Positions 4,200 through 31,505 of a stretch of 64,000 bases of DNA are shown here, one piece after another; positions within the stretch are counted from its first letter, which is position 1, and each line of letters starts with the position of its first letter. The DNA comes from Thermoanaerobaculia bacterium. Lineage in GTDB: Bacteria > Acidobacteriota > Thermoanaerobaculia > Multivoradales > Multivoraceae. Position numbers and translations under genes: made by a program. The notes below the pieces were generated by a model. The model was not told the DNA's origin and searched no databases. It saw nothing but the letters and a program-made list of their open reading frames with translations. The stretch spans positions 1,729,450 through 1,793,449 of the forward strand of contig OZ220482.1 in NCBI GenBank assembly GCA_965116145.1, given 5' to 3'.

Positions 4200-7100
4200 A
4201 TGCGGCTTGAGGATCTTCAGCCCCGTTGCACGGTGCGCGGCGTGCATCCCGACGGGGCGGTGGAGGTCGTCAATGTCGAGTGGTTCGGGTCGGAGGCGGT
4301 CGAACTGACGTTCAAGGCGCCGGACGGGGGCGTCATGAACCAGCTTCTCTACCGCGACGACGAGGCCGGGCTGAAGCTGGTCGAGCGGGGGCGGGCGTGG
4401 TCCTTCGACGGGGATGGCGCCCTGTTCCGGCTGGTGTCGGAAGCGCAGCGCATCCGGCTCGCGCATCTGTTCGATCCGGTGCTGGCGGTGCATACGTCCG
4501 TGGTCGAGCCGCTGCCCCACCAGATCACGGCGGTCTACGAGGCGATGCTGCCGCGCCAGCCGCTCCGCTTCCTGCTCGCCGACGACCCGGGCGCCGGCAA
4601 GACGATCATGGCGGGACTGCTGATCAAGGAGCTGATGGCCCGCGGCGATCTCGAGCGCTGCCTGGTGGTCTGTCCGGGCGCCCTGGCCGAGCAGTGGCAG
4701 GACGAGCTCTACCGGCGGTTCCACCTGCCGTTCGAGATCCTGACGAACGACCGGCTGGACGCCGCGCGCACCCGCAACTGGTTCCTGGAAGCGAACCTGG
4801 TCATCGCCCGGTTGGACAAGCTGTCGCGCGACGACGACGTGCAGCAGAAGCTGCAGGCGCCCGGCGCCGAGTGGGACCTCGTCGTCTGCGACGAAGCGCA
4901 CAAGTTCTCGGCGACGTACTTCGGGCACGAGATCAAGTTCACGAAGCGCTACAGGCTGGGCCGGCTTCTCTCCGGCCTGACCCGCAACTTCCTGCTGATG
5001 ACGGCAACCCCTCACAACGGCAAGGAGGCGGATTTCCAGCTCTTCATGGCGCTGCTCGACGACGACCGGTTCGAGGGCCGCTTCCGCGACGGCGTGCACA
5101 CCGTGGATGTGTCCGACCTGATGCGGCGCATGGTCAAGGAACGGCTGCTCAGGTTCGACGGCAGGCCGCTCTTTCCCGAGCGCATCGCCTACACCGTCCC
5201 GTTCGAACTGTCCGACGAAGAAGCCCGTCTCTACGGGGAGGTCACGAGCTACGTCCGCGAGCAGTTCAATCGCGCCGAGGCGCTTGCCAACAGGAAGCGG
5301 ACGAGCGCCGTCGGTTTCGCCCTGACCATCCTGCAGCGGCGGCTGGCGTCCTCGCCGGAGGCCATCTACCGCTCCTTGCGGCGCCGGCGGGAACGGCTGG
5401 AAGGACGCCTGCGCGAACTCGAGGTCCTCCAGAAGGGCGGCCAGCACTCCCTGGTCGTTCAGTTCCTGGCGCCGGAACTCGACGAGGACGATGTCCAGGA
5501 TCTCGCCGACGCCCCGGAGGAGGAGATCGAGGACACCGAGGCGAAGGTCCTCGACCAGGCCACGGCCGCGCAGTCGATCGCCGAGCTGAGGGCCGAGATC
5601 GAGTCCCTGAAGCGACTCGAGGCGCTGGCGCTTGAAGTGCGCCGCGGCGGCCAGGACACGAAGTGGCGCGAACTTGCCAGCCTGCTGAACGAGATCTTCA
5701 GCCCCTCCGGCCGGGCCGACCGGATCGGAGAACGCACGACGCCCACCGGGACCGGTCCGGCGCCGCGGCCGGTCACGTCACCGGGGCAGAAACTCGTGCT
5801 GTTCACCGAGCACCGCGACACGCTGAGCTACCTGCACGAGCGGATCGGCACGCTGCTCGGCCGCGAAGGCTCGGTGGTCGTCATCCACGGCGGCATCGGC
5901 CGCGAGCAGCGCCTGGGCATCCAGGAGGCCTTCCTGTACGACCCGGAGGTCCAGGTGCTGCTGGCGACCGACGCCGCCGGTGAGGGCATCAACCTGCAAC
6001 GGGCGCATCTGATGGTCAACTACGACCTGCCGTGGAACCCGAACCGGCTGGAGCAGCGCTTCGGCCGCATTCACCGGATCGGCCAGCGGGAGGTCTGCCA
6101 TCTCTGGAATCTGGTCGCCAGGGAGACCCGGGAGGGCGATGTCTACCACCGGCTCCTGGAGAAGCTGAACCAGGCCCGCGAGGCGCTCGGAGGACAGGTC
6201 TTCGACGTGCTCGGCAAGCTGGAGTTCGAAGGCCGTCCGCTGCGGGAGCTGCTGCTGCGGGCCATCCGCTACGGCGAGCAGCCCGAGGTACGGGCCCGGC
6301 TCGACACCGCCGTCGACCATGCCCTGGACCACGGTGCGCTGCAGGAGCTGCTCGAAGACCGGCAGCTCGCGCACGACGCGATGGACGCCTCGCGCGTCCG
6401 GCGGGTCCGCGAGGACATGGAACGTGCCGAAGCACGCCGCCTGCAGCCGCACTACATCCGGTCCTTCTTCTTGGCCGCGTTCAGGCGGCTCGGCGGCAGA
6501 CTGCGCGAGCGGGAGCCGGGCCGCTTCGAGGTGACGAAGGTGCCGGCAGCCGTCCGCCGACGCAGCCGGCTGATAGGGACCGGCGCGCCGGTGCTGGGCC
6601 GCTACGAGCGGATCGCGTTCGAGAAACCGCTGGTGGCGCCGCAGGGCCAGCCGCTCGCCGACTTCTTCTGCCCCGGCCATCCCCTGCTGGACACGGTCAC
6701 CGATCTGACCCTCGAAGATCATCGCGGCCTGCTGCGGCGCGGCGCCGTCCTGGTCGACGAACGCGACCACGGCACGGCGCCGCGGGTGCTGTTTTCGATC
6801 GAGCACGCCCTGCAGGACGGCAACACCACCCGCAGCGGCGACCGGAAGGTCGTCTCCCGGCGCATGCTGTACGTGGAACTCGGCGCCGACGGCGATCCGC
6901 GCCACCTGCACTACGCGCCGTATCTCGACTACCGGCCGCTGACCGGCGACGAGCCGAGCGTCGACGACATCCTCGAGCGGCCCGAGTGCCGTTGGATCGA
7001 CCGCGGCCTCGAGCAGAAGGCGCAGGGGTACGCGGTCGCCAACGTCGTGCCCGAACATCTCAAGGAGGTGCGCGACGCGCGGCTCGACCTGCTCGCACGC

Positions 7101-7784
7101 ACCGAGGCGGCGGTCAAGGAGCGCCTGACCAAGGAGATCAGTCACTGGGACCACCGTGCCGCTCAGCTCAGGCTCGACGAAGAAGCCGGGAAGGCCGGCG
7201 CCCGACTCAACTCGGCCGAAGCGCGGCGACGGGCGGAGACCCTGAACGAGCGCCTCAGGAAGCGTCTGACCGAGCTGGAGCGGGATCGGCAGATCTCGCC
7301 CCGACCGCCGATCGTGCTCGGCGGCCTCCTGGTCGTCCCCCGCGGCCTGATCGACACGATGACGGGCGGAACCGGCTCCACCAACGCCGCCGCCGCCGCG
7401 ACCGACACCCAGGCGGCAGCCGCCGAAGCCCGCAACATCGTCATGGCAGCGGAGCGCCGGCTCGGCTTCGAACCCGTCGACCGGGAGTTCGAGAAGCTGG
7501 GCTACGACGTCGAGAGCCGGGACCCGGCCACCGGCAGGCTCCGGTTCATCGAAGTCAAGGGACGACGCAGCGACGCCCCGACGGTCACCGTCACCAGGAA
7601 CGAGATCCTGTATTCCCTGAACAAGCCGGACGACTTCATCCTCGCCATCGTCCTCTTCGACGACAGCGACAGCCCGCCGGTCCGCTACGTGCGGCAGCCG
7701 TTCGGGAAGGAACCCGACTTCGCGGCCGAGAGCGTCAACTACGCCCTGCGGGAACTCCTCGCACGGGCCGAGGACCCGAATTGA
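4200..7784 (+). CDS. SNF2-family helicase with C-terminal DUF3883 (restriction-endonuclease-like) domain
   Basis: SNF2 motifs are present: DDPGAGKT (I), DEAHKF (II), TATPHNG (III) and QRFGRIHRIGQ (VI). The C-terminus GYDVES...RFIEVKG...TRNE matches the DUF3883/NOV-C PD-(D/E)xK fold. Confidence 0.9.
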   Translation: MRLEDLQPRCTVRGVHPDGAVEVVNVEWFGSEAVELTFKAPDGGVMNQLLYRDDEAGLKLVERGRAWSFDGDGALFRLVSEAQRIRLAHLFDPVLAVHTSVVEPLPHQITAVYEAMLPRQPLRFLLADDPGAGKTIMAGLLIKELMARGDLERCLVVCPGALAEQWQDELYRRFHLPFEILTNDRLDAARTRNWFLEANLVIARLDKLSRDDDVQQKLQAPGAEWDLVVCDEAHKFSATYFGHEIKFTKRYRLGRLLSGLTRNFLLMTATPHNGKEADFQLFMALLDDDRFEGRFRDGVHTVDVSDLMRRMVKERLLRFDGRPLFPERIAYTVPFELSDEEARLYGEVTSYVREQFNRAEALANRKRTSAVGFALTILQRRLASSPEAIYRSLRRRRERLEGRLRELEVLQKGGQHSLVVQFLAPELDEDDVQDLADAPEEEIEDTEAKVLDQATAAQSIAELRAEIESLKRLEALALEVRRGGQDTKWRELASLLNEIFSPSGRADRIGERTTPTGTGPAPRPVTSPGQKLVLFTEHRDTLSYLHERIGTLLGREGSVVVIHGGIGREQRLGIQEAFLYDPEVQVLLATDAAGEGINLQRAHLMVNYDLPWNPNRLEQRFGRIHRIGQREVCHLWNLVARETREGDVYHRLLEKLNQAREALGGQVFDVLGKLEFEGRPLRELLLRAIRYGEQPEVRARLDTAVDHALDHGALQELLEDRQLAHDAMDASRVRRVREDMERAEARRLQPHYIRSFFLAAFRRLGGRLREREPGRFEVTKVPAAVRRRSRLIGTGAPVLGRYERIAFEKPLVAPQGQPLADFFCPGHPLLDTVTDLTLEDHRGLLRRGAVLVDERDHGTAPRVLFSIEHALQDGNTTRSGDRKVVSRRMLYVELGADGDPRHLHYAPYLDYRPLTGDEPSVDDILERPECRWIDRGLEQKAQGYAVANVVPEHLKEVRDARLDLLARTEAAVKERLTKEISHWDHRAAQLRLDEEAGKAGARLNSAEARRRAETLNERLRKRLTELERDRQISPRPPIVLGGLLVVPRGLIDTMTGGTGSTNAAAAATDTQAAAAEARNIVMAAERRLGFEPVDREFEKLGYDVESRDPATGRLRFIEVKGRRSDAPTVTVTRNEILYSLNKPDDFILAIVLFDDSDSPPVRYVRQPFGKEPDFAAESVNYALRELLARAEDPN

Positions 7785-7976: not shown

Positions 7977-10900
7977 ATGGCCGCAACGAATCACGAGCGC
8001 GTCGGCAAGGCGCTCGAGCTCCTGAGGGCAGGCCTGGCCCCCTTCGTCGACCGCGAGATGAAGCGCGCGGTCAGGAACGGACGGCTCGACCGCAGCGTCC
8101 TGGACTCCTTCAACGATCCCAGGCTGCATCAGCGCCCCCTGGTCGAATGGGACGCCGCGGCGTTGCTCAAGCTGATGTGGGACCACTGGAACAGCGTCTT
8201 CCGGGATGTCCTCGGGCCGGCCGAGCGCAGCTTCGTCGGCGAGCTGCGCGGGCACCGGAACCGCTGGGCGCACCAGGAGGCCTTCTCCGGCGACGACGCG
8301 TACCGAGCGCTCGACACGGCGGGCCGCCTGCTGACCGCGGTTGGCGCGACGAAGGAAGCGGCCGAGGTCGACCAGTCGAAGACGGAGCTTCTGCGGGAAC
8401 GTTACGACCAGCAGACGCGCAACCAGCGGCGGCGCCAGGCGACCCTCTCCATCAAGAGCACGGCGAGCCTCAAGCCGTGGCGGCAGGTCGTGACACCGCA
8501 CCGGGACGTGGCAAGCGGCGGCTACCAGCAGGCCGAGTTCGCCGCCGACCTGTGGCAGGCCTCGCACGGCGAAGGCGCCGAGGAGTACCGCGACCCGGCG
8601 GAGTTCTTCCGCCGCACCCACCTGACCGAGAGCCTCAGGCGGATGCTCGCCGGCGCCGCGCAGCGACTCGCCGGCCAGGGCGGCGATCCGGTCGTCCAGT
8701 TGCAGACGAACTTCGGCGGCGGCAAGACCCACTCGATGCTCGCTCTCTACCACCTGTGCTCGGGTGCGGCGTTCACCGAGCTGCCCGGTGTCGAGGACCT
8801 CATGCGGGAGAGCGGGGCGCCGGACCTGCCGGCGGTCAGGCGGGTCGTGCTGGTCGGCAATCGCATCTCGCCGGGGAATCCGGTGACCAAGGCGGACGGC
8901 ACGGTGGTGCGGACGCTCTGGGGCGAACTCGCCTGGCAGCTCGGCGGCGCCGAGGCTTTCGCCCGCATCGCGGCGGACGACCTGAACGCCACCAACCCCG
9001 GCGATGTCCTGCGGCAGCTTCTCGTCGAGTTCGGTCCCTGCCTGATCCTGATCGACGAATGGGTCGCCTATGCCCGCCAGCTTCACGACCAGGGCGACAT
9101 CCCCGGCGGCAGCTTCGAGACCCAGTTCACGTTCGCGCAGGCGCTGACCGAATCCGCCAAGGTAGCCGGCAACTGCCTGCTGGTGGTCAGCCTGCCGGCC
9201 TCCGACACCGCCAGCTCCCAGGCCGACGACGTCGAGGTCGGCGGTCAGCGCGGCCGCCAGGCTCTCAACCGGCTGCGCAACGTGATCGGGCGCATCGAAT
9301 CGTCCTGGCGCCCGGCCAGCGCGGAGGAGGGCTTCGAGATCGTGCGCCGGCGGCTGTTCGAGCCGTTCGCCGACCCGGAGAAGTTCCGGGACCGCGACGT
9401 TGTCGCCCGGGCGTTCGCCGACCTCTACCGGGACCGGTCTCACGAGTTTCCGCCGGACTGCCGGGACGCCGACTACGAGCAGCGGCTGAAGGCGGCCTAT
9501 CCGATCCACCCGGAGATCTTCGACCGCCTCTACTCGGACTGGTCGACCCTGGTGACGTTCCAGCGCACCCGCGGCGTGCTGCGACTGATGGCCGCGGTGA
9601 TCCACAGCCTCTGGCAGAAGGGCGACAGCAGCCCGCTCATCCTGCCGGCGAGCCTGTCGATCGACGACCCTCAGGTGCAGTTCGAGCTGACCCGCTACCT
9701 GCCTGCGCCCTGGGTGCCAGTGATCGAGAAGGACGTCGACGGCCCGCAGTCCCTGCCGCAGCAGATCGAGAGCGAAGTCACGAACCTGGGCAAGTACTCC
9801 GCCTGCCGACGAGTGGCCCGCACCGTGTATCTCGGTTCTGCTCCGAGCGCCGGCTCGGCACAGCGCGGACTCGAGGATCGCCGGATCAAGCTGGGCTGCG
9901 TCCTTCCCGGCGAGCCCCCCAGGGTCTTCGAGGACGCGCTGCGGCGGCTGGCGTCCCGCGCGACCCACCTCTACCAGGACGGCAGCCGCTACTGGTACGA
10001 CACGCGGCCGACCGTGACGAAGCTGGCCCAGGATCGCGCCGAGCAGCTTCGCCGCGAGCCGGACCAGGTGTCCCAGGCGATCGACGCGAACCTGCGCGCC
10101 GCCCTGCGCGAACGGGCCGGATTCAGCCGCATCCACATCGCGCCGCAGTCCGGCCACGACGTACCGGACGAACGCGATGTCCGTCTCGTCGTCCTCGGCG
10201 CCCGGCACGAGCACCGGCAGGAACCGGACTCCCCTGCCCAGGCCGCAGCAGCGGCCATCCTCGACTCCCGAGGCGCCTCGCCCCGGCTCTACCGCAACAC
10301 CCTCGTCTTCCTGGCGCCGGACCAGACGCGGCTGCAGGACCTCGAAGAGGCCGTCCGCCACCGCCTCGCGTGGGAGTCCATCCTCGCCGAGCGGGAGTCG
10401 CTGGATCTCTCGCCGCACCAGGTCAAGCAGGCGGATACCCAGCTCCAGGCAGCCGCCGAGTCCGTCAACGTCCGCCTGCCCGAGACCTACCGCTGGCTGC
10501 TCGTACCCGTCCAGGACGACCCGGCGGCGGCCGTGACCTGGAACGCCGCCCGACTCTCGGGCCACGCCGATCTCGCCGTCCGTGCCGCCAACCGCCTGAA
10601 GAGCGACGACCGGCTGGCCGCGGCGCTCTCCGGCACCCGGCTGCGGATGGAGCTCGACCGGATTCCGCTGTGGCGCGGTAACCACGTGCCGCTGCCGCAG
10701 CTCGTTGAGGACTTCGCGCAGTACCTCTACCTGCAGCGGCTGCAGAACCCGTCCGTGCTGCTGCGCGCGGTGGCGGACGGGGTCGGGCTGCTGACCTGGG
10801 AACAGGACGCCTTCGCCTGGGCCGACAGCTTCGACGAGACCGGCGGCGGCGCGGTGGCCTCCGGCAGTTCCAGCGGAGCCGGCGGCGCTGCCGTCGACGG

Positions 10901-11462
10901 GGCTGACGGCAGGACCAGCGCCGACGGTCCGGCCGAGACGTCCGGTCGGTACCCCGGCCTCCGCGCCGGCCAGGTGATCTCCCTGACGGACCCGGCGGCC
11001 CCGGGGCTCCTGGTCAAGCCGGACGTTGCACGCCGCCAACTGGAGGCGGAAAGCGCCCCGCCGCCGAGCGCCGCCGGCCCCGCCGCTGCGGCCGGCGCCG
11101 CGACCGACCAGACCGGCTCCGGCAAGACAGCGGCCGGCGCCGCCGCGGGGGCCGCTGCCGGACAGACCCCTCCGCAGGCGCCGGGCCCCAACCGGTTCGA
11201 CGGCGCCGTCTCACTGGACGCCACGCGCGCCGGGTACGAAGCGAGCCGGATCGCCGACGAGGTCATCACCCACCTGGCCAGCCTCGTCGGCTCCAGGGTC
11301 ACCGTGACCCTGGAGATCGAGGCCGAGTTCCCGGACGGGCCGCCTGACCGACCGGACGGGGCAACGGATCGCCCGGGCGGTGCACCGGACCACGTCGTCC
11401 GCACCGTGACCGAAAACTGCCGGACCCTGAAGTTCAGAAGCCACGGCTTCACGCGCGAGTAG
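7977..11462 (+). CDS. DUF499 P-loop ATPase with N-terminal Swt1-like HEPN domain
   Basis: The N-terminus carries the HEPN Rx4H motif (RNRWAHQ). The DUF499 hallmark P-loop FGGGKTH is present. A long Ala/Pro/Gly low-complexity linker precedes a roughly 90-aa C-terminal domain. Confidence 0.85.
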   Translation: MAATNHERVGKALELLRAGLAPFVDREMKRAVRNGRLDRSVLDSFNDPRLHQRPLVEWDAAALLKLMWDHWNSVFRDVLGPAERSFVGELRGHRNRWAHQEAFSGDDAYRALDTAGRLLTAVGATKEAAEVDQSKTELLRERYDQQTRNQRRRQATLSIKSTASLKPWRQVVTPHRDVASGGYQQAEFAADLWQASHGEGAEEYRDPAEFFRRTHLTESLRRMLAGAAQRLAGQGGDPVVQLQTNFGGGKTHSMLALYHLCSGAAFTELPGVEDLMRESGAPDLPAVRRVVLVGNRISPGNPVTKADGTVVRTLWGELAWQLGGAEAFARIAADDLNATNPGDVLRQLLVEFGPCLILIDEWVAYARQLHDQGDIPGGSFETQFTFAQALTESAKVAGNCLLVVSLPASDTASSQADDVEVGGQRGRQALNRLRNVIGRIESSWRPASAEEGFEIVRRRLFEPFADPEKFRDRDVVARAFADLYRDRSHEFPPDCRDADYEQRLKAAYPIHPEIFDRLYSDWSTLVTFQRTRGVLRLMAAVIHSLWQKGDSSPLILPASLSIDDPQVQFELTRYLPAPWVPVIEKDVDGPQSLPQQIESEVTNLGKYSACRRVARTVYLGSAPSAGSAQRGLEDRRIKLGCVLPGEPPRVFEDALRRLASRATHLYQDGSRYWYDTRPTVTKLAQDRAEQLRREPDQVSQAIDANLRAALRERAGFSRIHIAPQSGHDVPDERDVRLVVLGARHEHRQEPDSPAQAAAAAILDSRGASPRLYRNTLVFLAPDQTRLQDLEEAVRHRLAWESILAERESLDLSPHQVKQADTQLQAAAESVNVRLPETYRWLLVPVQDDPAAAVTWNAARLSGHADLAVRAANRLKSDDRLAAALSGTRLRMELDRIPLWRGNHVPLPQLVEDFAQYLYLQRLQNPSVLLRAVADGVGLLTWEQDAFAWADSFDETGGGAVASGSSSGAGGAAVDGADGRTSADGPAETSGRYPGLRAGQVISLTDPAAPGLLVKPDVARRQLEAESAPPPSAAGPAAAAGAATDQTGSGKTAAGAAAGAAAGQTPPQAPGPNRFDGAVSLDATRAGYEASRIADEVITHLASLVGSRVTVTLEIEAEFPDGPPDRPDGATDRPGGAPDHVVRTVTENCRTLKFRSHGFTRE

Positions 11463-12342: not shown

Positions 12343-12445
12343 AGGTCGAAGACAAGAGCCAATAGCGGCCTGCCCTACGGAACTAGACCCTCGTCGCGCA
12401 CAAAGAAAGAGGGAAGAAGCCAACGACAAAAAGGAGAGCGTAAAC

Positions 12446-12643
12446 GTGAAATCTCGAGTGGAGAGAGGGAGTCAAAGAACCAAGTACGTCGTAATTGACT
12501 TGAATGCCACGAAAGAACTGCAGGACTGGATTCAGAGCGACAGCGTCAATCGTATCCTCAAGTTCGCGGAGACGGCAGAAAAAAACCTGGGCTTGAGGAC
12601 GGCCGGAAAGGACTCTTCGCATCGCACCAACAATGACGGCTGA
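12446..12643 (+). CDS. hypothetical 65-aa protein, first gene of the low-GC cassette
   Basis: GTG start with a strong SD (AAAAGGAGAG). Local GC is far below the genomic background. Its stop overlaps the next start. Confidence 0.45.
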   Translation: MKSRVERGSQRTKYVVIDLNATKELQDWIQSDSVNRILKFAETAEKNLGLRTAGKDSSHRTNNDG

Positions 12644-13334: not shown

Positions 13335-13828
13335 AGTCGCGACGAGAGGCGCTGATCTCCTTCAGGACCGGCGACCTCCTTGATGAGGACGCAGAGGCGT
13401 TGATCAACCCCGTCAACTGCGTCGGGGTCATGGGACGCGGGATTGCACTTCAGTTCAAGAAGAAGTACCCCGGTAACTTTCGGGCCTACGTCGCGGCCTG
13501 CAAGCGGAAGGAGATCGTTCCCGGACGCATGTTCGTCTTCGAGACCGGTGCGCTCCTGTACCCCCGTTTCATCGTGAACTTCCCGACCAAGCGTCACTGG
13601 CGTGGCAAGAGTCGACTCCGGGACATCGAGGACGGGTTGGAGGACCTTGCCAGGCTGATCCGCGAGCGCAGGATCCGCTCCATCGCTGTGCCGGCGCTCG
13701 GCAGCGGACTCGGCGGACTGGACTGGAGCGACGTGCGGCCGCGCATCGAGGAGACCCTGCGCGGCTTCGACGATCTGGACGCGGTCATCTTCGAACCGGG
13801 CAGCGCGCTGGAGGCAAGGAGCGCCTGA
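13331..13828 (+). CDS. TARG1/DarG-like macro domain protein (ADP-ribose hydrolase family)
   Basis: NCVGVMGRGIALQFKKKYPG and PALGSGLGGLDWSDVRPRIEE align with TARG1 motifs (CRMGAGIAVLFKKKFGG; PRIGCGLDRLQWENV). Confidence 0.8.
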   Translation: MKSRREALISFRTGDLLDEDAEALINPVNCVGVMGRGIALQFKKKYPGNFRAYVAACKRKEIVPGRMFVFETGALLYPRFIVNFPTKRHWRGKSRLRDIEDGLEDLARLIRERRIRSIAVPALGSGLGGLDWSDVRPRIEETLRGFDDLDAVIFEPGSALEARSA

Positions 13829-13978
13829 GGTTGCCGGCTCTCTGGCGGCCACCTGCGGCTGAACGCATAGCCCAATCAAGCGCGCAGCCAAGCCTCCCGG
13901 CTCGGTGATCGCCGTGGCCATCTCATGGAGTACGACACGCGACCGACTTGCGCCGTCCGTTGCTCTCCGCGAGGCTCC

Positions 13979-14218
13979 TCAGGCGAACAGGCGCAGGCCG
14001 AGCAGCAGTGCCGCCATCGTGGTGCCGTGAATCAACAAGGACCGGTACAAGGTCGCCTTCATCTCGGCGACCGCCACGTCCAGGTCGGCCTTCGTTGCTC
14101 CGCCCTCGACAACCGCCACACGGCGGGTTTCGACCACGGCGTCCGCTTGCGGTGCGTCCATGCCGGCGGCTTCCAGGGCGCGCGCTGCGGCGAGCGTGTC
14201 GAACGTGGCTGTGTTCAT
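13979..14218 (-). CDS. small DUF1640-like coiled-coil/TM protein (paralog 3)
   Basis: MNTATFDTLAAARALEAAGMDAPQADAVVE...KADLDVAVAEMKATLYRSLL followed by a hydrophobic tail. The ATG at 14218 was chosen by paralog alignment. Confidence 0.55.
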   Translation of the reverse strand: MNTATFDTLAAARALEAAGMDAPQADAVVETRRVAVVEGGATKADLDVAVAEMKATLYRSLLIHGTTMAALLLGLRLFA

Positions 14219-14285: not shown

Positions 14286-17200
14286 TCAACTGTCCTCGCC
14301 CTCATCGTCGTCGTCATCATCATCGTCGTCGAAGAGTCCGGGGGTCTCCGGCCGGTCGGGGGTGCGGGCGAGGCGGGTGATCTCCGGCCAGCTCTGGACC
14401 AGGCTGTTGTAGGACAGGGCTTCGGCGGCGCGCTTCTTTCGTTCGCATACCGTGTAGAGCCGATAGCAGAGTTCGCGGGCTGTCTCCGCCCGGCTTCCGA
14501 GGCGCTTCACCAGGTCGGCGGCGCCCTGTTCGCCGCCCGATTCGAGCACCCGAATCAGGTGATGGACTGCCTCCCAGGCAGTGAGGCGCGTGTCCGTCTT
14601 CGGGTCCCAGTCCTCGGGTAGTTCCTTCGGCGCCAGCAGGCGGACCCGGCCGCCTCGGGACTCGACGACCCCTGCCTCGACCATGCCCTCTACGCTGGTG
14701 TTCTTGGCCTTGGACAGGGTCTCCGCGATGCCGAAGTCGCCCTCGTCGAAGCCGTTCTGCTCGAACCAGGCCAGCGCCCAGCGGCTGTCCGCGTCGAAGT
14801 CGCCTTCCTGTTCAGCCAGCACCTCGTCGAGGATCTCGTTGATGAGCGCCAGAGCCTCACGGACAGACATCGCGTTGCCGGCGGCGTCAAGCACCCTCTC
14901 GTGGCGCGTGTATGCCGCCATGCCCGGTCCGATCGCGGCCTGGGCGAGGTCCACCGGCGCGACGTTGCCGGACTGCAGCAGCCGCAGCGCCTTCGGCAGC
15001 TCGGCGCGCAGCGCGGTCAGGAACTCGCGGCGGGTGGCCACCGGAGCGTCGGCAGGCCGGCGGCGGCAGACGAGGACGATGCTGGAGGCCAGGGCGTTCG
15101 TCCTCATGCCGACCATCCGGTTGCTGAGCTCGGTGCGCATCGGCCAGGTGCCGGTGATCGCGAAACCGGACCGGATCGCGGCGTCCAGGAAGGTCTCCCA
15201 ACCGGTGCTCGCCACCCCCGTGTCGCCCTTGCGTTCGGACTGCTTGAAGGCGTAGTAGATCGTGACCGGAAAGCCGGGATGCGCCTGTTCGGCAAGCCGC
15301 TGCAGCGCGTCCGTCATGCCCGAGAGAAAGAAGGTCTCTGCGGCGGCCTTGTTGCCGTGCCGGTAGGGCGTCGCCACCAGTTCCTCGGCCTTCGGCACGG
15401 CCATCGTTGCGAACAGATCCGGAAACACCGGTCTCAGCGAGCGGCGTAACCAGACGTAGAAGAAGTCCGACAGGTCCGCGTAGCCGATGTTGTCGTAGTA
15501 CGGCGGATCGGTGGAGATGACCTTGTCGATGCTCAGGTTCTGAGTGCCCGCATCCGCAAGAGCCGCACTGCCGGCAGTGCTTGTCTGTGATTGGGCCAGA
15601 ATCTTGACGATCCAGCCGCACATGGAAATCCAATTGCCGCTGGACGTGCTCAGGGGATTCGCTTCGGCGTGGTCCCATGTCATCGGGATCGCTTGCCGCG
15701 CAAACGTGTTTCGTATCTTCGTGAACCCGATATCCCAAGTGCAGATCGAGGAGGAACGATCGGCCAAACGGTCCACCGCGAGGCCCAGATACAGGCCGAC
15801 CGCCTCGGCATACGCCGTCGCCCCCACACCGCCGTCGCGGAGCGGCCGTCCGTCGTCGGCGAGACCTGCCGCCGCGGCGTCCTGGCGGACCCGCTCCATC
15901 GCCTCGGCGACGAGATCGGAGAAGGTCGTCAGCGCAACGAGCTGGCGGGAGGTGAACAGGTCACACCAGCGGAGCATCCCGTACTCCTGCACGCGAAAGC
16001 CGAGTGCCCGCTGCGGCAGGTCGGTCTCGGGTGCCCACTCGGGGCTTGCGTTGATCGCCGTGAGCTCCTGGCTGGCCGACGCGTCAAGGTAGAGGCGTTG
16101 CCTGTCTCCTTCCGCGACAACTGCGAGGAGACGAGAACCCAGTCGGCCTGCCTTGCCCTCCGCTCGCAGGTAGTCAAACGGCATCGGTGACCCGGACATC
16201 AGGCACAGAAAGGGGCTGCCGCTGCCGCCGGACTTCGTCCCCCGCTTCGTCGCCTCGGGATCCGGCGGCGGTCCGACCCTTACCTCGAACCGGTACCCCC
16301 GCCCCTCGATCACCGGCTCGACGTACGCCTCCTTGCCCTTCTTCGTCGACAGCATGAACGTCGACGCCAGGGGCACCTCCACCTCCGCAAACGCCGGATT
16401 CGGACTCCGCACCGTCCGCGCCCACAGCCACGCGATCACCGTCAGCTTCCGGCCAGCGTACGGCGCCAGGTCCGGACGAGCCCGCGCCATCGCAGGAGCC
16501 ACCTCCACCTGCGGGTACAGATGGCCGATCCGACGCTTCACCTCGTCCCGCATCCAGCGGCCGTAGCGCCGCACATCTTCCGCCAGCCCCTGCGCACCGC
16601 GCCAGTCCCCGGCCAGCAACCGGGACTCACCCCGGGCCGCCGGATGCACCGGCGCCTTCCCGGCAAACTTCGGCGGCACCTCGATCATCGCCTTGTTGAT
16701 CAGCACCGCCACCGGGTTCAGGTCACTGGCATGGGACAGAAGCCCCAGACGCTGCGCTTCCAGCGGCAACGCCCCGCCCCCCGCAAACGGATCATGAAAC
16801 CCCGGCAACACCCCCGGATCGAACAGCTCCGCCTGCCCGCGGATGACCCGTGTTCGCCGCACAGGTCCGCTCCCAGCTCGCCCTGATCTCGGCCCGAGCC
16901 CGATCGAGCAACGCCTCGTTGGACGTGTTCTCCCACAGCACCAACTCCTCCAGCAACCTGAACAGACGCTCTCGCTCCTGCGCCGCCGCGATCTCCGCCA
17001 GCTCCCGCCTGTCGCGGGAGGCGTCCACCTCCGTCTCGCCGCCCGCACCCGGCTTCTCGCCCGCCGCCCGGCGCAGCCCGAGCGCACGCTCGGCCGCTCG
17101 TCGTCTGGCCGGATCCGACAGCAGCACATCGACGTACTCCTGGGGATCGTCGAGCATCTGGGCGAAGATCACCGCCCGCGCCACGGCGAGCGGCTTGCGC

Positions 17201-17322
17201 GACCACCACAGGTGAAGGGTCGAGGGGTGGCCATGGCGAATGGACTTCTCCCGAGCGCCGGCGACGTTGATCGCATCGAGTGGCAACGCCACCTCGATGA
17301 GCTTCCTGCGATGGGGGTTCAC
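14286..17322 (-). pseudogene. DUF1156-type DNA methyltransferase, copy 1 (full length but frameshifted near codon 165)
   Basis: N-terminus [19 protein letters not shown]...[17 protein letters not shown] is the DUF1156 hallmark. A 1-bp insertion relative to copy 2 (caggcggagc vs caggggagc, at about 16832) splits the reading frame into ORFs 16792..17322 and 14286..17129. The C-terminus is intact and ends in a poly-Asp tail. Confidence 0.8.
14911..16827. repeat. inverted repeat, left arm (identical 1.92-kb core of the methylase paralogs)
   Basis: The encoded protein segment ELFDPG...AAYTRH is 100% identical to the copy-2 segment. The DNA is identical by direct comparison of sampled regions. Duplicated antisense ORFs (e.g. 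15591..16190 and 32520..33119) confirm the repeat. Confidence 0.85.
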
Positions 17323-17437
17323 TTGCGACTCCGTTGCAGTTTCAGGTGTGTCCGGCGCGCGAACGAGGCCCGACCTCGGGATGCGGAGGGCCGTCCTCCC
17401 TTCGGCTGGCGCCTACCCCGGCCGTCGGACCGGACAG

Positions 17438-17632
17438 TCACGACCGCAGGTCAAACCGTCCATCCGCTGTCGTTCCGCCGGCGTCCCAGTCGAAAAAGCG
17501 CTCGCGATAGTCCTTCAGGCTGACCAGGGCGGCCGCCGGAGTCTGCCGCCGACAGATCAGAACCGGCCCACCGCCTCGTTCAAGCTGGTCCAGGACGCTG
17601 CCAAGCGACCGGCGGAGATCAACGGTGTTCAT
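17438..17632 (-). other. Phd/YefM-like antitoxin-type module (64 aa), in frame with integrase 1
   Basis: MNTVDLRRSLGSVLDQLERGGGPVLICRRQTPAAALVSLKDYRERF resembles Phd/YefM antitoxins. It has its own ATG at 17632. No partner toxin lies downstream. Confidence 0.45.
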
Positions 17633-18655
17633 TATCTTCCTGGATTCGGTCACCCTTTCAGCCGGGCTGCCAGGTGTCAACCCTGACGAGGCCCCTGACG
17701 AGGTCGCCGACAGCGTCGTTGGCATGGACCCTGACGTGTCGTCAGAAGGCGCGTCCGAGGCGCCGTGGCCCTCCGTTGCCGGCGCCGCCAGAAGGGCGGC
17801 CATGGCGCCTCCGATCCGCTCGGCCGCCGCTTCGGTGTCCTTGTCGCTGACGTGAGCGTAGCGGAGCGTCATTCGTGCCTGCGAATGGCCGAGCAGCCGC
17901 GAGACCACGGGCAGGGGCACGGACCGCATCACCGCGTGGCTGGCGAACGTGTGCCGGAGATCGTGCAGGCGTGCGTCGGCGATTCCAGCCTCGCGGCGCA
18001 CCTTCCGCCACAGCGACAGCTCATCGGAGCGGCTCGTGGAAGGATCGGTCAGCGAGGGAAACACGTACGGACTTCTGGTTCGGGGCTGACGGGCAAGGAC
18101 GGCGCGTGCCGGCGCGTTCAGGACGACGGTGCGCGGCCCGGTCTTGGTGTCGTTCAGGCGCAGCGAATCCCCGTCGACCTCCGACCAGCGGAGGCGCACG
18201 ATTTCGCCCTTCCGACAGCCTGTCCACAGCAGCAGCCGGATGATCTCCGCCTGCTGCCTGCCCGAGCCGCGGCCGCGGTGAGCGTCCAGAGCGGCGTGCA
18301 GACGTTCGACTTCCGCCCTGGACAGAAAGCGGGTCGGCTTCGGGCGCCGGTTGCGGTGAATGCCGCGGGTGGGATTGGTGGTGATGTGACCGCATGCCAT
18401 CGCGTGGTGGAAGATCTGGCGCAGCACGTCCAGTGTGCGGTTCGCGCCGGCCGGGGCGGACCGGCTGTAGCGGTCGAACCAGGCATTCACCGCCTTGCGG
18501 TCGATTCGGTCGAGCCGCCGCGGCCCGAACGTTGGCAACAACTGGGTGCGCAAGGCGCTGTCCATCCGCTTGCGGGTCGACGGCTTGCAGCGGGCATAGC
18601 TCACTGTCCTCCAGACGCCGGAAACGAACTTCCTGAACGTGGGGGGCCGAGTCAT
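17438..18655 (-). CDS. tyrosine recombinase/integrase 1, read in-frame into a C-terminal Phd/YefM-like module
   Basis: Catalytic region HDLRHTFASH...LGHSQARMTLRYAHV. Start at MTRPPTF (ATG at 18655) overlaps the integrase 2 stop (ATGA). There is no stop before the MNTVDL... module at 17632. Confidence 0.75.
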   Translation of the reverse strand: MTRPPTFRKFVSGVWRTVSYARCKPSTRKRMDSALRTQLLPTFGPRRLDRIDRKAVNAWFDRYSRSAPAGANRTLDVLRQIFHHAMACGHITTNPTRGIHRNRRPKPTRFLSRAEVERLHAALDAHRGRGSGRQQAEIIRLLLWTGCRKGEIVRLRWSEVDGDSLRLNDTKTGPRTVVLNAPARAVLARQPRTRSPYVFPSLTDPSTSRSDELSLWRKVRREAGIADARLHDLRHTFASHAVMRSVPLPVVSRLLGHSQARMTLRYAHVSDKDTEAAAERIGGAMAALLAAPATEGHGASDAPSDDTSGSMPTTLSATSSGASSGLTPGSPAERVTESRKIMNTVDLRRSLGSVLDQLERGGGPVLICRRQTPAAALVSLKDYRERFFDWDAGGTTADGRFDLRS

Positions 18656-19554
18656 CGCCCGGCGTCCAGCGCCGCCCCGACCGCCTCGGCGGCGCCCCGC
18701 ACGAAGGGGTCGGCAACGTGCACGTACTTCAGCGTCGTGGACGGGTCGCGGTGGCCCAGCAGGCGTCCGATCGTCAGCACCGTCTCGCCCTGGCGAAGTG
18801 CGAAACTGGCGTAGGTGTGGCGCAGATCGTGCAGTCGGACGCCGGGAATTCCTGCGGCCGCGCGCAGGGTCCGCCAGCACCTGTAGAGCGTTTCGGTCGG
18901 CATCGGCCCCGGCTTCTCGGCCGCCGGGAACACCCAGCGCCCGTTGCGCGGTATGCGGTCGAGCGCGGCCCGCGCCGCGGTCGAGAGCCAGACGGTGCGC
19001 GGCCCCGACTTGCTGTCGCGCAGGAACAGGTGACCCTCCCGATACTCGGACCACTTCAGTGTGCGGATCTCGCTCTGACGGCAGCCGGTGAGCAACAGCA
19101 GCCGGACGACGGCGACCGCGCAAGGTGCGACGGGTTCGTGGCCAGCCAGCGCGGCGCCCAGCCTGTGGACCTCCGCGGGCGTGAGGTGCCGCTCCCGGCT
19201 CCGCTCGGCGTACCGGTGAATCCCCACGCAGGGGTTGCTGTTCTCCCGGCGGTAGCCGTAGAGCTCGGCCTGCGCCATGATCACCGAGAGGACCGGAAGC
19301 GACCTGTTGGCGGCGGCCGGCGTGGCGCGCAGCGAAGCGAACCAGCTCGACACGTCGTCCCGCGTGATCCCGCCGATTTGCCGGCCGTTGAACCAGGGAC
19401 CGATCTGGTTTCGAAGATAGGACCGGTTGACGTGAAGGGTGCGTGGCTTCCAGCGGCGTCCGTAGCGGCGGAACACCTCTTCTGTCACGACTTCGAACCG
19501 TCTGCCGGCACCGCCATTGGAGGCGTTGGTCTCGGGTACTCGGCTTGCTGGCAT
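18652..19554 (-). CDS. tyrosine recombinase/integrase 2
   Basis: HDLRHTYASF...LGHRDPSTTLKYVHV. SD sequence GAGAGGAA before the ATG at 19554. Translationally coupled to integrase 1. Confidence 0.8.
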   Translation of the reverse strand: MPASRVPETNASNGGAGRRFEVVTEEVFRRYGRRWKPRTLHVNRSYLRNQIGPWFNGRQIGGITRDDVSSWFASLRATPAAANRSLPVLSVIMAQAELYGYRRENSNPCVGIHRYAERSRERHLTPAEVHRLGAALAGHEPVAPCAVAVVRLLLLTGCRQSEIRTLKWSEYREGHLFLRDSKSGPRTVWLSTAARAALDRIPRNGRWVFPAAEKPGPMPTETLYRCWRTLRAAAGIPGVRLHDLRHTYASFALRQGETVLTIGRLLGHRDPSTTLKYVHVADPFVRGAAEAVGAALDAGR

Positions 19555-20000
19555 CTGCTGTTCCTCTCTGGAGGGTCGGCACGGCTGTTCGGAGGGCCGA
19601 ACGCGGCTTCGGCGCGTCCCCGTCTCGTGCCGCACCCTCGGTATCGGCGGCCGCGCTACGGGGGCATGGCGGCAGCGCGGCGGCTACGCCTCGGGCTCGC
19701 GCGCTTGCCGGATCTGCGGCGCCGGTGGACTGTTAGAGTGCCCGAAGACTGGCGCCCCTGGACCGGAGTCCGGCCATTCGTACATTCGAGTGCGTCGCAT
19801 CGGCGCTCCCGCGTTCGGGGGCCGCGGCGAGAGGTCGGCGGTCGGCTGCAGAGGCCGGCCTGCCAGCCTGCAGTTCTCGGCGACTCGCCGCCGGATCGCG
19901 GCCGGGGCACCGGGCGGCGAGCCTCCTGCCAAGCGTCCTCCTGAGCGCTGCCGCCGTCTCCGTTGGGCCGTCACCGGGCACCGCGCAGCCGGAGTCCGGC

Positions 20001-31415: not shown

Positions 31416-31505
31416 CGTGACGGTCGATTCGTGCGGCGGACGCTTGCAGGCCAAGACGGCCGGAGCACCCGGCGAGCGGTCTGTCCAGGACACGCTCCAG
31501 ACCTG

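What the first reader, a model, noticed from the sequence alone, without database searches (positions are those of the whole stretch)
17438..19554. Two translationally coupled paralogous tyrosine recombinases, the second reading in frame into a Phd/YefM-like module, placed at one end of the putative invertible segment
Integrase 2 (18652..19554) and integrase 1 (start 18655) overlap by ATGA. Integrase 1 has no stop after its catalytic RY...HV region. It continues through a roughly 75-aa Ser/Thr/Gly-rich linker into a 64-aa Phd/YefM-like module (its own ATG is at 17632) and ends at 17438, about 115 bp upstream of the methylase copy-1 start. No cognate toxin gene (Doc, ParE or YoeB-like) follows. 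A fusion of a recombinase to a Phd-like DNA-binding module is unusual. The module could instead be a separate internally initiated regulator of the adjacent methylase or recombinase.
Basis: partly seen in the sequence, partly recalled or inferred. Interest (0 to 1): 0.6.

Follow-up and report, generated by a model that had tools for sequence, protein, structure and literature searches.

The report
Recombinase pair flipping a defence methylase
Two back-to-back recombinase genes, one with an antitoxin domain built into its tail, are most likely the enzymes that flip a DNA segment to re-wire the methylase gene of an anti-phage (Hma) system, a layout that recurs in many soil-bacterial genomes and that I could not find described.

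Summary
int2 (18652-19554, minus) and int1 (17438-18655, minus) overlap by ATGA. Both are complete tyrosine recombinases. int1 runs without a stop through a disordered linker into a Phd/YefM domain.

The fusion is not an error. It is conserved in 42 of the best 120 homologues. In related loci a PIN/VapC toxin gene follows it with a 4-nt overlap. The window has lost the toxin and about 20 aa of the antitoxin tail.

The pair always sits between two divergent inverted copies of hmaB, the DUF1156 methylase of the Hma (HmaA/B/C) defence system. One HiFi metagenome contains both orientations of such a cassette, with a 6,910/6,910-identical flank. The crossover maps to a 28-nt core inside hmaB. The same position in 18 loci carries a conserved asymmetric site (GCCGAGGCGGT-N5-TGTATYTGG).

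The recombinases are therefore most likely the invertases of a methylase-switching inverton. The window appears to be in an OFF-like state: the frameshifted 5' half is joined to the full 3' half, and the intact 5' half to the truncated 3' half.

I rate this a new variant of a known kind. The closest analogues are the pneumococcal tvr locus and BREX pglX inversions. The role of the fused antitoxin remains an inference.

The parts
18652..19554 (-). int2: 300-aa tyrosine recombinase, first gene of the pair
   Evidence: Pfam Phage_integrase 70 bits. Catalytic motifs TGCRQSE, DSKSGPR, HDLRHT, LLGH and KYVHV are readable in the translation. An RBS-like GAGAGGAA precedes the ATG. It is 60-73% identical to the upstream partner gene in 24 related loci.
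18652..18655 (-). ATGA overlap (int2 stop / int1 start)
   Evidence: Sequence read directly. The same 4-nt overlap appears in the L001, L004 and L085 gene calls.
17786..18655 (-). int1 recombinase core (residues 1-290)
   Evidence: Pfam Phage_int_M plus Phage_integrase, 85.1 bits. R148, K171, H231, R234, H257 and Y266 are invariant in 22 homologues.
17642..17785 (-). Ser/Thr/Gly/Ala-rich linker (residues 291-338)
   Evidence: AlphaFold2 pLDDT is below 50 for residues 291-338. Length and sequence vary among homologues, but the frame is kept.
17438..17641 (-). Phd/YefM-type antitoxin domain fused to int1 (its own ATG at 17632). The C-terminal toxin-binding tail is shortened by about 20 aa.
   Evidence: PF02604 31.4 bits alone. 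TIGR01552 24.2 bits against a cutoff of 20.8. The model has beta-alpha-alpha-beta-beta-alpha topology at residues 341-387. The tail deletion is seen against 21 homologues.
17323..17437 (-). 115-nt spacer where homologues carry a 136-aa PIN/VapC toxin gene
   Evidence: tblastn and local alignment find no PIN remnant. No terminator-like site lies between int1 and hmaB.
14286..17322 (-). hmaB copy 1 (DUF1156 adenine methylase). It has the full-length C-terminus, but a 1-nt insertion at 16831 breaks the frame after the DUF1156 domain.
   Evidence: PADLOC HmaB 1302 bits, model positions 131-955 of 967. DUF1156 lies in the ORF 16792-17322. The extra C at 16831 is seen relative to copy 2.
15785..15809 (-). 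Predicted recombination core in copy 1 (GCCGAGGCGGTCGGCCTGTATCTGG)
   Evidence: This position is homologous to the 28-nt crossover interval mapped in L001/L002. The consensus and synonymous-site conservation come from 39 copies.
32901..32925 (+). Predicted recombination core in copy 2
   Evidence: Same as for copy 1. It is the mirror position in the inverted repeat.
31431..34130 (+). hmaB copy 2. The N-terminus is intact. HmaB homology ends at residue 793 (nt 33810), followed by 106 unrelated residues.
   Evidence: PADLOC HmaB 1256 bits, model positions 7-781 of 967. Divergence begins after ...[10 protein letters not shown], the same boundary as the short copies in other loci.
14900..16830 (.). 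Inverted-repeat arm 1 (1,931 nt, 100% identical to 31880-33810)
   Evidence: the repeat finder I1.
31880..33810 (.). Inverted-repeat arm 2
   Evidence: the repeat finder I1.
4200..7784 (+). hmaA (SNF2 helicase with NOV_C nuclease-like C-terminus)
   Evidence: PADLOC HmaA 1628 bits. Pfam SNF2, Helicase_C and NOV_C.
7977..11462 (+). hmaC (HEPN_Swt1 + DUF499 ATPase)
   Evidence: PADLOC HmaC 1091 bits. Pfam hits.

Best explanation
int2 and int1 are the paired, probably heteromeric, tyrosine invertases of a programmed inversion switch built into the Hma anti-phage system.

The cassette that encodes them lies between two divergent, inverted copies of the methylase gene hmaB. Both 5' halves face the cassette. 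One 3' half is full length and the other is a short variant ending near residue 800. Recombination at an asymmetric core inside hmaB (GCCGAGGCGGT-N5-TGTATYTGG, codons for AEAVxLYL at about residue 495) flips the cassette and swaps which 5' half, with its upstream operon, is joined to which 3' half. That produces alternative methylases or an ON/OFF change.

The Phd/YefM module on int1 is the antitoxin (VapB-type) of a PIN/VapC toxin. In the family this toxin gene follows the fusion with a 4-nt overlap and directly precedes hmaB. Because the antitoxin is physically part of one invertase, recombinase supply, toxin neutralisation and probably operon autorepression are coupled.

In this window the toxin gene and about 20 aa of the antitoxin tail have been deleted. 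What remains is most likely a dimerising DNA-binding appendage or autorepressor. About 11.8 kb of cargo has been inserted into the cassette. The locus sits in an OFF-like arrangement that one inversion would repair.

Shown: the anatomy, conservation of the fusion, the toxin in homologues, both inversion isomers in one population, and the conserved core.
Inferred: that int1 and int2 catalyse the inversion, that they work as a heteromer, what the fused antitoxin does, and that this particular locus still flips.
For: 1. Fusion is conserved. 42 of the best 120 homologues carry PF02604 on the same polypeptide. In the alignment of 22, the linker varies by indels but the Phd domain stays in frame. 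Source gene calls agree.

2. Toxin is present in homologues. A PIN gene overlaps the fusion's stop in L001-L004. A PIN136 homologue follows Phd in 7 of 9 distinct Phd-fused loci. Sister proteins whose recombinase core is almost the same carry an AbrB/MazE-type antitoxin domain instead and are also followed by PIN.

3. Link with hmaB. In 20 of 22 related loci long enough to judge, the pair is flanked by two inverted hmaB copies, with HmaA and HmaC nearby.

4. Inversion is observed. L001 and L002 come from one HiFi metagenome. They share a cassette that is 6,302/6,303 identical and a flank that is 6,910/6,910 identical, in opposite relative orientation. A four-junction alignment confines the crossover to 28 nt.

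5. The site is conserved.
- In 16 of 18 loci, similarity between the two copies collapses immediately 3' of this core.
- The 5-nt spacer is identical between partners in 18/18 loci but differs between loci.
- The Tyr codon in the core is TAT in 36/37 copies, against 22% TAT elsewhere in the same genes.
- Third-position conservation peaks at the two flanking blocks.

6. Both enzymes look competent. They have full catalytic sets. One homologue, P0060, is a single int2-int1 polypeptide.

7. State of the window. Copy 1 is frameshifted at 16831 but has the full C-terminus. Copy 2 is intact to residue 793 only.

8. The short 3' halves keep at least 300 open codons and the DPPY motif in nearly all loci. 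This argues that they are maintained.
Against: - No read-level evidence shows that this genome inverts.
- In the window the arms are 100% identical over 1,931 nt. RecA-dependent inversion or gene conversion would explain the repeat equally well, and the switch cannot change specificity here.
- The inversion isomers come from metagenome contigs, not a clonal culture.
- Many related loci (L011, L013-L024) have no TA module at all. The antitoxin is therefore an accessory, not part of the core mechanism.
- One homologue (P0096) is fused to a HigB-like toxin domain. This suggests the fusion may simply capture the first gene of whatever TA operon lies downstream.
- The AlphaFold2 confidence for the Phd module is only 58-69.
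- The half-site assignment to int1 and int2 is untested.
Confidence: 0.75

Rival explanations
1. The recombinases are relics in this genome. The 1.9-kb perfect inverted repeat is maintained and flipped, if at all, by homologous recombination and gene conversion. The Phd-tailed int1 is a decaying leftover of a once complete recombinase-TA cassette.
For: The window has lost the PIN gene and part of the antitoxin tail. hmaB copy 1 is frameshifted. The two arms are homogenised to 100% for 1,931 nt, unlike the 57-86% amino-acid identity between the copies' halves in all but two of the other loci (L004: 86% N-half, 81% C-half). 11.8 kb of unrelated cargo sits in the cassette.
Against: Both recombinase ORFs are intact, with all catalytic residues, high GC3 and the conserved ATGA coupling. 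Both core sites are intact.
Confidence: 0.25
2. The Phd module is also, or mainly, made as a separate 64-aa protein from the internal ATG at 17632. It acts as a free transcriptional regulator of the int2-int1-hmaB operon.
For: AGGAAG lies 3 nt upstream of ATG 17632. A Met at the domain start is kept in most homologues. The isolated 64 aa score above the Pfam cutoff.
Against: The Shine-Dalgarno-like element is specific to the window, and its spacing is short. Homologues have purine-rich stretches only 15-20 nt upstream. Several lack the Met: P0006, P0009, P0021 and P0080. The open frame across an indel-rich linker is conserved.
Confidence: 0.25
3. The pair belongs to an integrative mobile element that inserted into hmaB and duplicated part of it. 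The Phd module is the element's addiction antitoxin.
For: More distant relatives of the pair occur in several copies per genome without any Hma genes (Group B). A published survey read integrases near Hma as signs of mobility (PMC11232893).
Against: - The hmaB copies are inverted, not direct.
- Both are maintained as open frames with a catalytic motif across phyla.
- The crossover is at one fixed codon position in 18 loci.
- The two isomers differ by inversion, not by presence or absence.
Confidence: 0.07
4. The fusion is an assembly or sequencing artefact that removed a stop codon or shifted the frame between two genes.
For: The window contains at least one 1-nt frame break nearby, at 16831.
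Against: The same fused architecture is found in dozens of independent assemblies at 60-74% identity.
Confidence: 0.02

Closest known systems
Streptococcus pneumoniae tvr locus (SpnIV Type I R-M): tyrosine recombinase TvrR with the Phd-Doc homologues TvrAT (PMC6265443)
   Same: A tyrosine recombinase and a Phd-type TA module sit together in the centre of a phase-variable methylase-specificity locus. There the TA homologues lower the rearrangement rate by repressing recombinase transcription rather than acting as an addiction module. This is the best model for what the fused Phd domain does here.
   Different: - tvr has one recombinase, not two.
- Its antitoxin is a separate protein.
- Its toxin partner is Doc, not PIN.
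- It uses excision-reintegration on direct repeats, not inversion.
- Its target is hsdS of a Type I system, not the DUF1156 methylase of Hma.
Programmed inversions in BREX type 1 pglX and class 1 DISARM drmMI (Milman et al. 2023, PMC9881135; Goldfarb 2015 as cited there)
   Same: Intragenic inversion between a full methylase gene and a partial inverted copy next to a recombinase in an anti-phage system. Some states lack the methylase C-terminus, like the window's present arrangement.
   Different: - That paper does not mention DUF1156, DUF499 or antitoxins.
- Here the 5' halves and promoters are inside the invertible segment.
- Two coupled recombinases are encoded.
- TA modules sit at the cassette ends.
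Type I hsdS invertons (S. pneumoniae cod/ivr locus, invertase PsrA/CreX; PMC7096588 and PMC4948785, listed)
   Same: Tyrosine-recombinase-driven inversions between inverted repeats inside specificity-determining methylase genes create subpopulations with different methylomes.
   Different: Those systems use a single invertase and several repeat pairs, and they swap target-recognition domains of a separate S subunit.
XerC/XerD at dif (established knowledge; NCBIfam comparison)
   Same: Two paralogous tyrosine recombinases are encoded together and would act on an asymmetric core with two different half-sites around a short spacer. The best NCBIfam matches are Xer models.
   Different: Scores are 47-88 bits against equivalog cutoffs of 220-335, so these are not Xer orthologues. 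They perform inversion inside a gene, not chromosome dimer resolution. Heteromeric action here is inferred only.
VapBC type II toxin-antitoxin modules with Phd/YefM-type or AbrB-type VapB (established knowledge)
   Same: In homologues a Phd/YefM or AbrB antitoxin domain is immediately followed by a PIN toxin gene with a 4-nt overlap.
   Different: The antitoxin is the C-terminal domain of a recombinase. In the window the toxin is absent.
Hma system (Payne et al. 2021, PMC8565338; Halomonas study PMC11232893), also called type-1 BREX-related system (bioRxiv 10.1101/2025.10.09.681413)
   Same: HmaA, HmaB and HmaC are all present with very high PADLOC scores.
   Different: None of these papers describes duplicated inverted hmaB, an inversion or recombinase-antitoxin fusions. 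The Halomonas paper read nearby integrases as mobility.

Membership tests
Tyrosine recombinase (Phage_integrase, PF00589) | Profile match above the curated cutoff | tested here: met
   int1 85.1 bits and int2 70 bits, against 27.1.
Tyrosine recombinase (Phage_integrase, PF00589) | Catalytic R-K-H-R-H/W-Y set | tested here: met
   int1: R148, K171, H231, R234, H257 and Y266 are invariant in alignment A2. int2: CRQSE, DSKSG, HDLRH, LLGH and KYVHV are read from the translation.
XerC/XerD orthologues | Score above the NCBIfam equivalog cutoff | tested here: not met
   47-76 bits against cutoffs of about 330. These are Xer-like only in a general sense.
Phd/YefM antitoxin (PF02604 / TIGR01552) | Profile match above the curated cutoff | tested here: met
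   PF02604 scores 31.4 bits for the 64-aa module (cutoff 29.8) but 28.3 bits in the whole protein. TIGR01552 scores 24.2 bits against 20.8. The weak direct match to E. coli YefM 2a6q has E 0.07.
Phd/YefM antitoxin (PF02604 / TIGR01552) | N-terminal beta-alpha-alpha-beta-beta-alpha dimerisation/DNA-binding fold | tested here: inconclusive
   The AlphaFold2 model has this topology at residues 341-387, but pLDDT is only 58-69.
Phd/YefM antitoxin (PF02604 / TIGR01552) | Cognate toxin gene adjacent in the same operon | tested here: not met
   No toxin is found in the window. Homologues do have one: PIN overlaps the fusion's stop in L001-L004 and in 7 of 9 Phd-fused loci.
Phd/YefM antitoxin (PF02604 / TIGR01552) | Neutralises the toxin and represses its own promoter | not testable with these tools
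   Needs co-expression, pull-down and EMSA experiments.
Programmed inversion switch (inverton / shufflon-type) | Inverted repeats bounding a segment, with a site-specific recombinase encoded at the locus | tested here: met
   1,931-nt inverted repeat. Two recombinases lie inside the segment.
Programmed inversion switch (inverton / shufflon-type) | Both orientations present in one population | tested here: inconclusive
   Met for the homologous cassette: L001 against L002/L003 has 100% identical flanks. No reads are available for the window's own genome.
Programmed inversion switch (inverton / shufflon-type) | Crossover at a defined short core shared by the two partners | tested here: met
   A 28-nt crossover interval in L001/L002. 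The same core, with a partner-identical spacer, occurs in 18/18 loci including the window. Synonymous-site constraint supports it.
Hma defence system (PADLOC) | HmaA helicase, HmaB methylase and HmaC ATPase encoded together | tested here: met
   1628, 1256/1302 and 1091 bits.
RIT (recombinase in trio) / BIM elements | Three tandem tyrosine recombinases (RIT), or one recombinase plus a conserved second non-recombinase protein (an SMC-domain protein, per the paper's supplementary-table caption) (BIM) | tested here: not met
   Two recombinases and no third. BIM definition read in PMC3414803.

The most novel reading that the evidence does not exclude
Hma / BREX-related defence systems in Acidobacteriota, Gemmatimonadota and other phyla carry a so far undescribed kind of inverton. 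A two-recombinase cassette, working Xer-like on an asymmetric core inside the methylase gene, toggles alternative 5' halves of hmaB, which include most of the target-recognition insert. One recombinase is covalently joined to the antitoxin of a flanking VapC toxin. The flipping rate, and with it methylation specificity or ON/OFF state, would then be gated by toxin-antitoxin signalling, for example antitoxin proteolysis during phage attack or stress.
Probability: 0.3. Interest if true: 0.8.

Novelty: new variant of a known kind. Interest (0 to 1): 0.62.

Why it matters
Hma, also called the type-1 BREX-related system, is reported in 26 phyla (PMC8565338), but how its methylase is controlled is unknown. 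If the explanation is right, three things follow.

1. Integrases seen next to Hma have been misread as signs of mobility. They are in fact a phase- or specificity-variation device. This would add Hma to Type I R-M, BREX and DISARM as defence systems that diversify by programmed inversion.

2. Paired, translationally coupled tyrosine recombinases acting on an asymmetric core would be a compact, Xer-like heteromeric invertase. That is of interest for recombinase biology and tool building.

3. A recombinase that carries its own antitoxin domain is a direct physical link between toxin-antitoxin regulation and DNA rearrangement. In the pneumococcal tvr locus this link is made in trans. The fusion makes the link easy to test.

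For annotation, such loci should not be called pseudogenised methylases or integrated elements.

Tried and rejected
- **Source contig.** An exact look-up of the window's own fusion protein to recover its contig found no record. Cluster look-up gave no names or accessions. The organism stays unknown. The nearest relatives are Acidobacteriota MAGs.
- **PIN or second TA remnant in the window.** tblastn with PIN136, PIN146 and the 80-aa antitoxin, plus local DNA alignment of the 115-nt spacer, found nothing.
- **Exact L001 core in the window.** A search allowing up to 3 mismatches gave no match. The homologous site had to be located through the protein frame.
- **BIM bipartite modules (Van Houdt 2012).** Rejected after reading: BIM is one recombinase plus a second conserved non-recombinase protein (an SMC-domain protein in the supplementary-table caption) in beta-proteobacteria.
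- **RIT elements.** Rejected because those have three recombinases. One RIT-like trio is merely inserted in L086.
- **Promoter and terminator scan of 17200-20100.** Nothing found. The scan is uninformative for this GC-rich organism.
- **Direct sequence search of the PDB with the antitoxin domain.** Only marginal hits (YefM E 0.07).
- **Literature searches.** I searched DUF1156 with recombinase, recombinase-antitoxin fusions, and pglX with inversion. No description of this arrangement turned up in the held library, which lacks most subscription journals.
- **Dyad symmetry.** I looked for dyad symmetry between the two conserved blocks of the core by eye. None is apparent, hence the proposal of an asymmetric site.
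Full report
**1. The observation**

The window is about 70% G+C. Two ORFs lie on the minus strand exactly as described.
- int2 is 18652-19554 (300 aa from the ATG at 19554). GAGAGGAA precedes the ATG, and the source's own gene call has the same length.
- int1 is 17438-18655 (405 aa).
- The sequence gggcgATGActcgg shows the int1 start and the int2 stop sharing ATGA.

Pfam gives Phage_integrase for both, at 85.1 and 70 bits. For int1 it adds a C-terminal PhdYeFM_antitox match at residues 345-384. That match scores 28.3 bits in the whole protein and 31.4 bits for the 64-aa module alone, against a gathering score of 29.8. NCBIfam TIGR01552 (phd_fam) scores 24.2 bits against a cutoff of 20.8.

Third-position G+C stays high in the int1 frame through the linker. 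An AlphaFold2 model built on 22 homologues leaves residues 291-338 disordered (pLDDT below 50). It gives residues 341-387 the beta-alpha-alpha-beta-beta-alpha order of Phd/YefM N-domains, at modest confidence of 58-69.

Both enzymes have the full catalytic set. For int1, R148, K171, H231, R234, H257 and Y266 are invariant in the alignment. For int2, the same motifs are readable. The two are paralogues at about 40% identity (cross-matches).

No toxin gene follows. The fusion stops at 17438, and 115 nt later the GTG of the methylase begins.

**2. The fusion is real, and it has a toxin elsewhere**

A search of 5.8 billion proteins returned the window's own protein plus a large family. 42 of the best 120 hits carry PF02604 on the same chain as the integrase domains, at 59-74% identity and 344-444 aa.

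In an alignment of 22 of them, the linker is riddled with indels yet the Phd domain is always in frame. The domain is well conserved (VNALELRQSLGKVLDQLERGGxPILVCRRRTPAAALVSLKDYRERFVDREAD). It is followed by a tail (RRREVVARLKKLKFESPxxGTTLDVLRDLRS). The window's protein has lost about 20 residues of that tail.

Gene neighbourhoods of homologues settle the missing-toxin question. The order in L001-L004 is:
- a 292-304-aa integrase;
- the 425-427-aa integrase-Phd fusion, with a 4-nt overlap;
- a 136-aa PIN-domain protein whose start overlaps the fusion's stop by 4 nt;
- a DUF1156 methylase.

Phd/YefM-type antitoxins paired with PIN/VapC toxins are a standard type II combination (established knowledge).

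In my survey, a PIN136 homologue follows Phd in 7 of 9 distinct Phd-fused loci. The exceptions are the window and L010. tblastn and local alignment find no PIN remnant anywhere in the window.

Sister proteins (P0020, P0023, P0026, P0032) have recombinase cores nearly identical to the Phd-fused P0002. They diverge right after the last integrase helix and carry an AbrB/MazE-type antitoxin domain instead. They too are followed by PIN. Two unrelated antitoxin folds joined at the same point argue that the joined state is selected.

One caution: P0096 is joined to a HigB-like toxin domain. The rule may therefore be that the first gene of the downstream TA operon gets fused.

Wherever Phd is present in the surveyed loci, it is attached to int1. 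One case is frameshifted (L012) and one has an insertion (L009).

An internal Met at the domain start is common but not universal. No Shine-Dalgarno lies at a workable distance in homologues. The AGGAAG 3 nt before ATG 17632 is peculiar to the window.

**3. What the recombinases act on**

PADLOC models identify the following:
- window 4200-7784 as HmaA (1628 bits);
- window 7977-11462 as HmaC (1091 bits);
- both DUF1156 genes as HmaB (1302 and 1256 bits).

This is the Hma system of Payne et al. 2021 (PMC8565338). A 2025 preprint calls it a type-1 BREX-related system.

The two hmaB copies are inverted. Arms 14900-16830 and 31880-33810 are 1,931 nt at 100% complementarity, with the more 5' parts at 92% and 83%.
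- Copy 1 (14286-17322, minus) lies directly downstream of int1. It has the complete C-terminus, but an extra C at 16831 breaks the frame just after the DUF1156 domain.
- Copy 2 (31431-34130, plus) has an intact N-terminus. It stops resembling HmaB at residue 793, exactly where the repeat ends.

A scan of 185,579 species genomes with the family alignment returned 80 loci. I annotated them by tblastn. They fall into two groups.

Group A comprises L001-L024, plus L085, L086 and the window. The MAGs are Acidobacteriota, Gemmatimonadota, a Spirochaetia MAG and some Proteobacteria. Here the coupled pair lies between two divergent inverted hmaB copies whose 5' ends face the cassette, with HmaA and HmaC alongside. 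This holds in 20 of the 22 loci long enough to judge. L011 and L020 show only one copy.

In each locus one copy is long, with about 490-505 codons after the site and a conserved ...ITRLAR..EQ..LF tail. The other copy is short, with HmaB homology ending near residue 793-808 at ...GPGMAxYTR, as in the window. The short copies keep at least 300 open codons and the DPPY motif in nearly all loci. They are therefore maintained, not decaying.

**4. Inversion is observed, and the site is defined**

L001, L002 and L003 come from one HiFi metagenome (ERZ19489113).
- L001 6914-13215 equals L002 3080-9382, apart from a single 1-nt indel.
- The flanks are exchanged and inverted.
- The 6,910-nt flank carrying BatA, DUF4175 and the hmaB 3' half is 6,910/6,910 identical.

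These are inversion isomers of one locus.

Aligning the four junctions confines the crossover to 28 nt: GCAAACGCCAAATACAGGGCTACCGCCT. This is the antisense of codons for ..EAVALYLAFA.., about residue 500 of HmaB. The arms are only about 80% identical at the DNA level. The exchange was therefore site-specific rather than homologous.

Anchoring on the protein frame, I extracted the same position from both copies in 18 loci.
- In 16 of them the copies are 67-100% identical 5' of the core and drop to 34-52% immediately 3' of it.
- The consensus over 39 copies is GCgTAtGCCGAGGCGGT-nnnnn-TGTATcTGG.
- The five-base spacer is identical between the two partners in 18/18 loci but takes at least 11 forms between loci. 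This is the behaviour expected of a strand-exchange overlap region.
- The Tyr codon inside the right block is TAT in 36 of 37 copies, against 22% TAT (134/608) for all other Tyr codons in the same gene stretches.
- Third-position conservation peaks at the two blocks, 0.82-1.00 against about 0.4-0.7.

The two blocks are not inverted repeats of each other. An asymmetric core fits two different recombinases each reading one half-site, as XerC and XerD do at dif. That step is inference. It is supported only by the strict co-occurrence of the two genes, their conserved 4-nt overlap and one natural int2-int1 single-chain protein, P0060.

In the window the cores are at 15785-15809 (minus) and 32901-32925 (plus). 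They bound a segment of about 17.1 kb.

**5. How it most likely works**

Inversion exchanges which 5' half of hmaB, with the operon in front of it, is joined to the long or the short 3' half. The 5' half is about 495 aa. It covers the DUF1156 domain, motif I and most of the insert that the BREX-related preprint assigns to target recognition.

In most loci the two 5' halves are 69-86% identical and the two 3' halves 57-81% identical. The full-length methylase therefore exists in two versions, plausibly with different specificity. Several loci have one crippled 5' half, which gives an ON/OFF character.

The window is a degenerate case. The halves are identical for 330 aa before and 298 aa after the core. 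The only consequences of flipping would be to join the intact 5' end of copy 2 to the complete 3' end of copy 1, next to hmaC and hmaA. The present arrangement looks OFF. L004 is in the same arrangement.

The cassette has also taken up 11.8 kb of cargo:
- two giant M12B/PKD/Calx-beta proteins;
- an AAA_15 ATPase.

TA modules sit at the cassette ends immediately upstream of the hmaB 5' halves in the acidobacterial branch:
- Phd-PIN or AbrB-PIN on the int1 side;
- an 80-aa protein with PIN, or MNT with HepT, on the other side.

Many other loci have none. The TA modules are therefore an accessory layer.

The best experimental model is the pneumococcal tvr locus. There, Phd-Doc homologues next to the tyrosine recombinase TvrR do not behave as an addiction module. 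They repress recombinase transcription and slow shuffling (PMC6265443).

I therefore propose that the fused Phd domain is the VapB-type antitoxin and autorepressor of the int2-int1-vapC-hmaB operon. Fusion would tie recombinase dosage to TA regulation. In the window it survives without its toxin, as in L010, probably as a dimerising DNA-binding tail. This last part is inference.

**6. Comparison and novelty**

Programmed inversions in defence methylases are known for Type I hsdS, BREX pglX and DISARM drmMI (PMC9881135). That survey does not mention DUF1156, DUF499 or antitoxins.
- The Hma papers do not describe duplicated hmaB or inversion.
- The Halomonas study noted integrases near 19.1% of hmaA loci and read them as mobility.
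- The BREX-related preprint mentions no recombinase.
- My searches for recombinase-antitoxin fusions found nothing relevant in the held library. This library lacks most subscription journals.

I rate the finding a new variant of a known kind. The principle is familiar. The new features are the host system, the coupled two-recombinase cassette inside the invertible segment, the asymmetric intragenic core, and the recombinase-antitoxin fusion.

**7. Limits**
- No read-level data exist for this genome.
- The perfect 1.9-kb repeat would also allow RecA-driven inversion or conversion.
- Catalysis by int1 and int2, their heteromeric action, and every functional statement about the Phd tail are untested.
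- The frame break at 16831 could be a sequencing error, although it is not a simple homopolymer-length change.

Noticed in passing
window 20001-23999 and 24230-28885 (+): Two paralogous giant secreted proteins (1332 and 1551 aa). Each has an M12B/reprolysin-like metalloprotease head, PKD, Calx-beta and He_PIG/Ig repeats, and Gly/Asp-rich stretches. They lie inside the putative invertible segment as cargo. Many internal direct repeats link them (families D1-D14).
   Followed up: partly
window 29395-30948 (+) and 2701-3975 (+): AAA_15/AAA_21 (AbiEii-like) ATPase genes flank the Hma locus. One lies directly upstream of hmaB copy 2 and one upstream of hmaA. This resembles the AAA_21 gene insertions reported inside Halomonas hma loci (PMC11232893).
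   Followed up: no
window 12001-14000; ORF 13298-13828 (+): A low-GC patch (58-63% against about 70%) lies between hmaC and hmaB copy 1. It holds a Macro-domain ORF and two ORFs without Pfam matches. It is possibly another inserted defence or ADP-ribose-related gene.
   Followed up: no
window 38705-38804 and 40993-41092: A 100-nt direct repeat, 99% identical, brackets about 2.3 kb that contains a 477-aa ORF (38693-40126) with no Pfam match. It is possibly a small mobile element or a duplication.
   Followed up: no
window 16831; L001 11823 vs L002 7989: In both the window and L001, the hmaB 5' half that lies downstream of the int1-Phd operon carries a 1-nt frame break. The window has an inserted C. 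L001 has GG where its inversion isomer L002 has GGG. This could be coincidence, assembly error or a second layer of switching.
   Followed up: partly
loci L025-L084 (mostly alphaproteobacterial MAGs): More distant relatives of the same recombinase pair (55-64% identity) occur with a gap of about 300 nt between the genes and a longer N-terminus on the first gene. No Hma genes are nearby. There are several copies per genome, for example five in OZ243972.1, sharing a unit of about 2.4 kb at about 80% identity. This is possibly a small two-recombinase mobile element from which the Hma invertase pair derives.
   Followed up: partly
L086 2010-5172: Three tandem integrase genes (412, 311 and 331 aa, RIT-like) are inserted between the int2-like gene and the int1-AbrB fusion of an Hma cassette.
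   Followed up: no
proteins P0060 and P0096: P0060 is a single 552-aa chain made of an int2-like recombinase followed by an int1-like recombinase. P0096 is an int1-like recombinase joined to a HigB/RelE-like toxin domain rather than an antitoxin.
   Followed up: partly
L085 8171-9080: The other end of an AbrB-type cassette carries a HepT/MNT (nucleotidyltransferase) TA pair directly upstream of the second hmaB copy. At least four TA families are therefore found at cassette ends.
   Followed up: no
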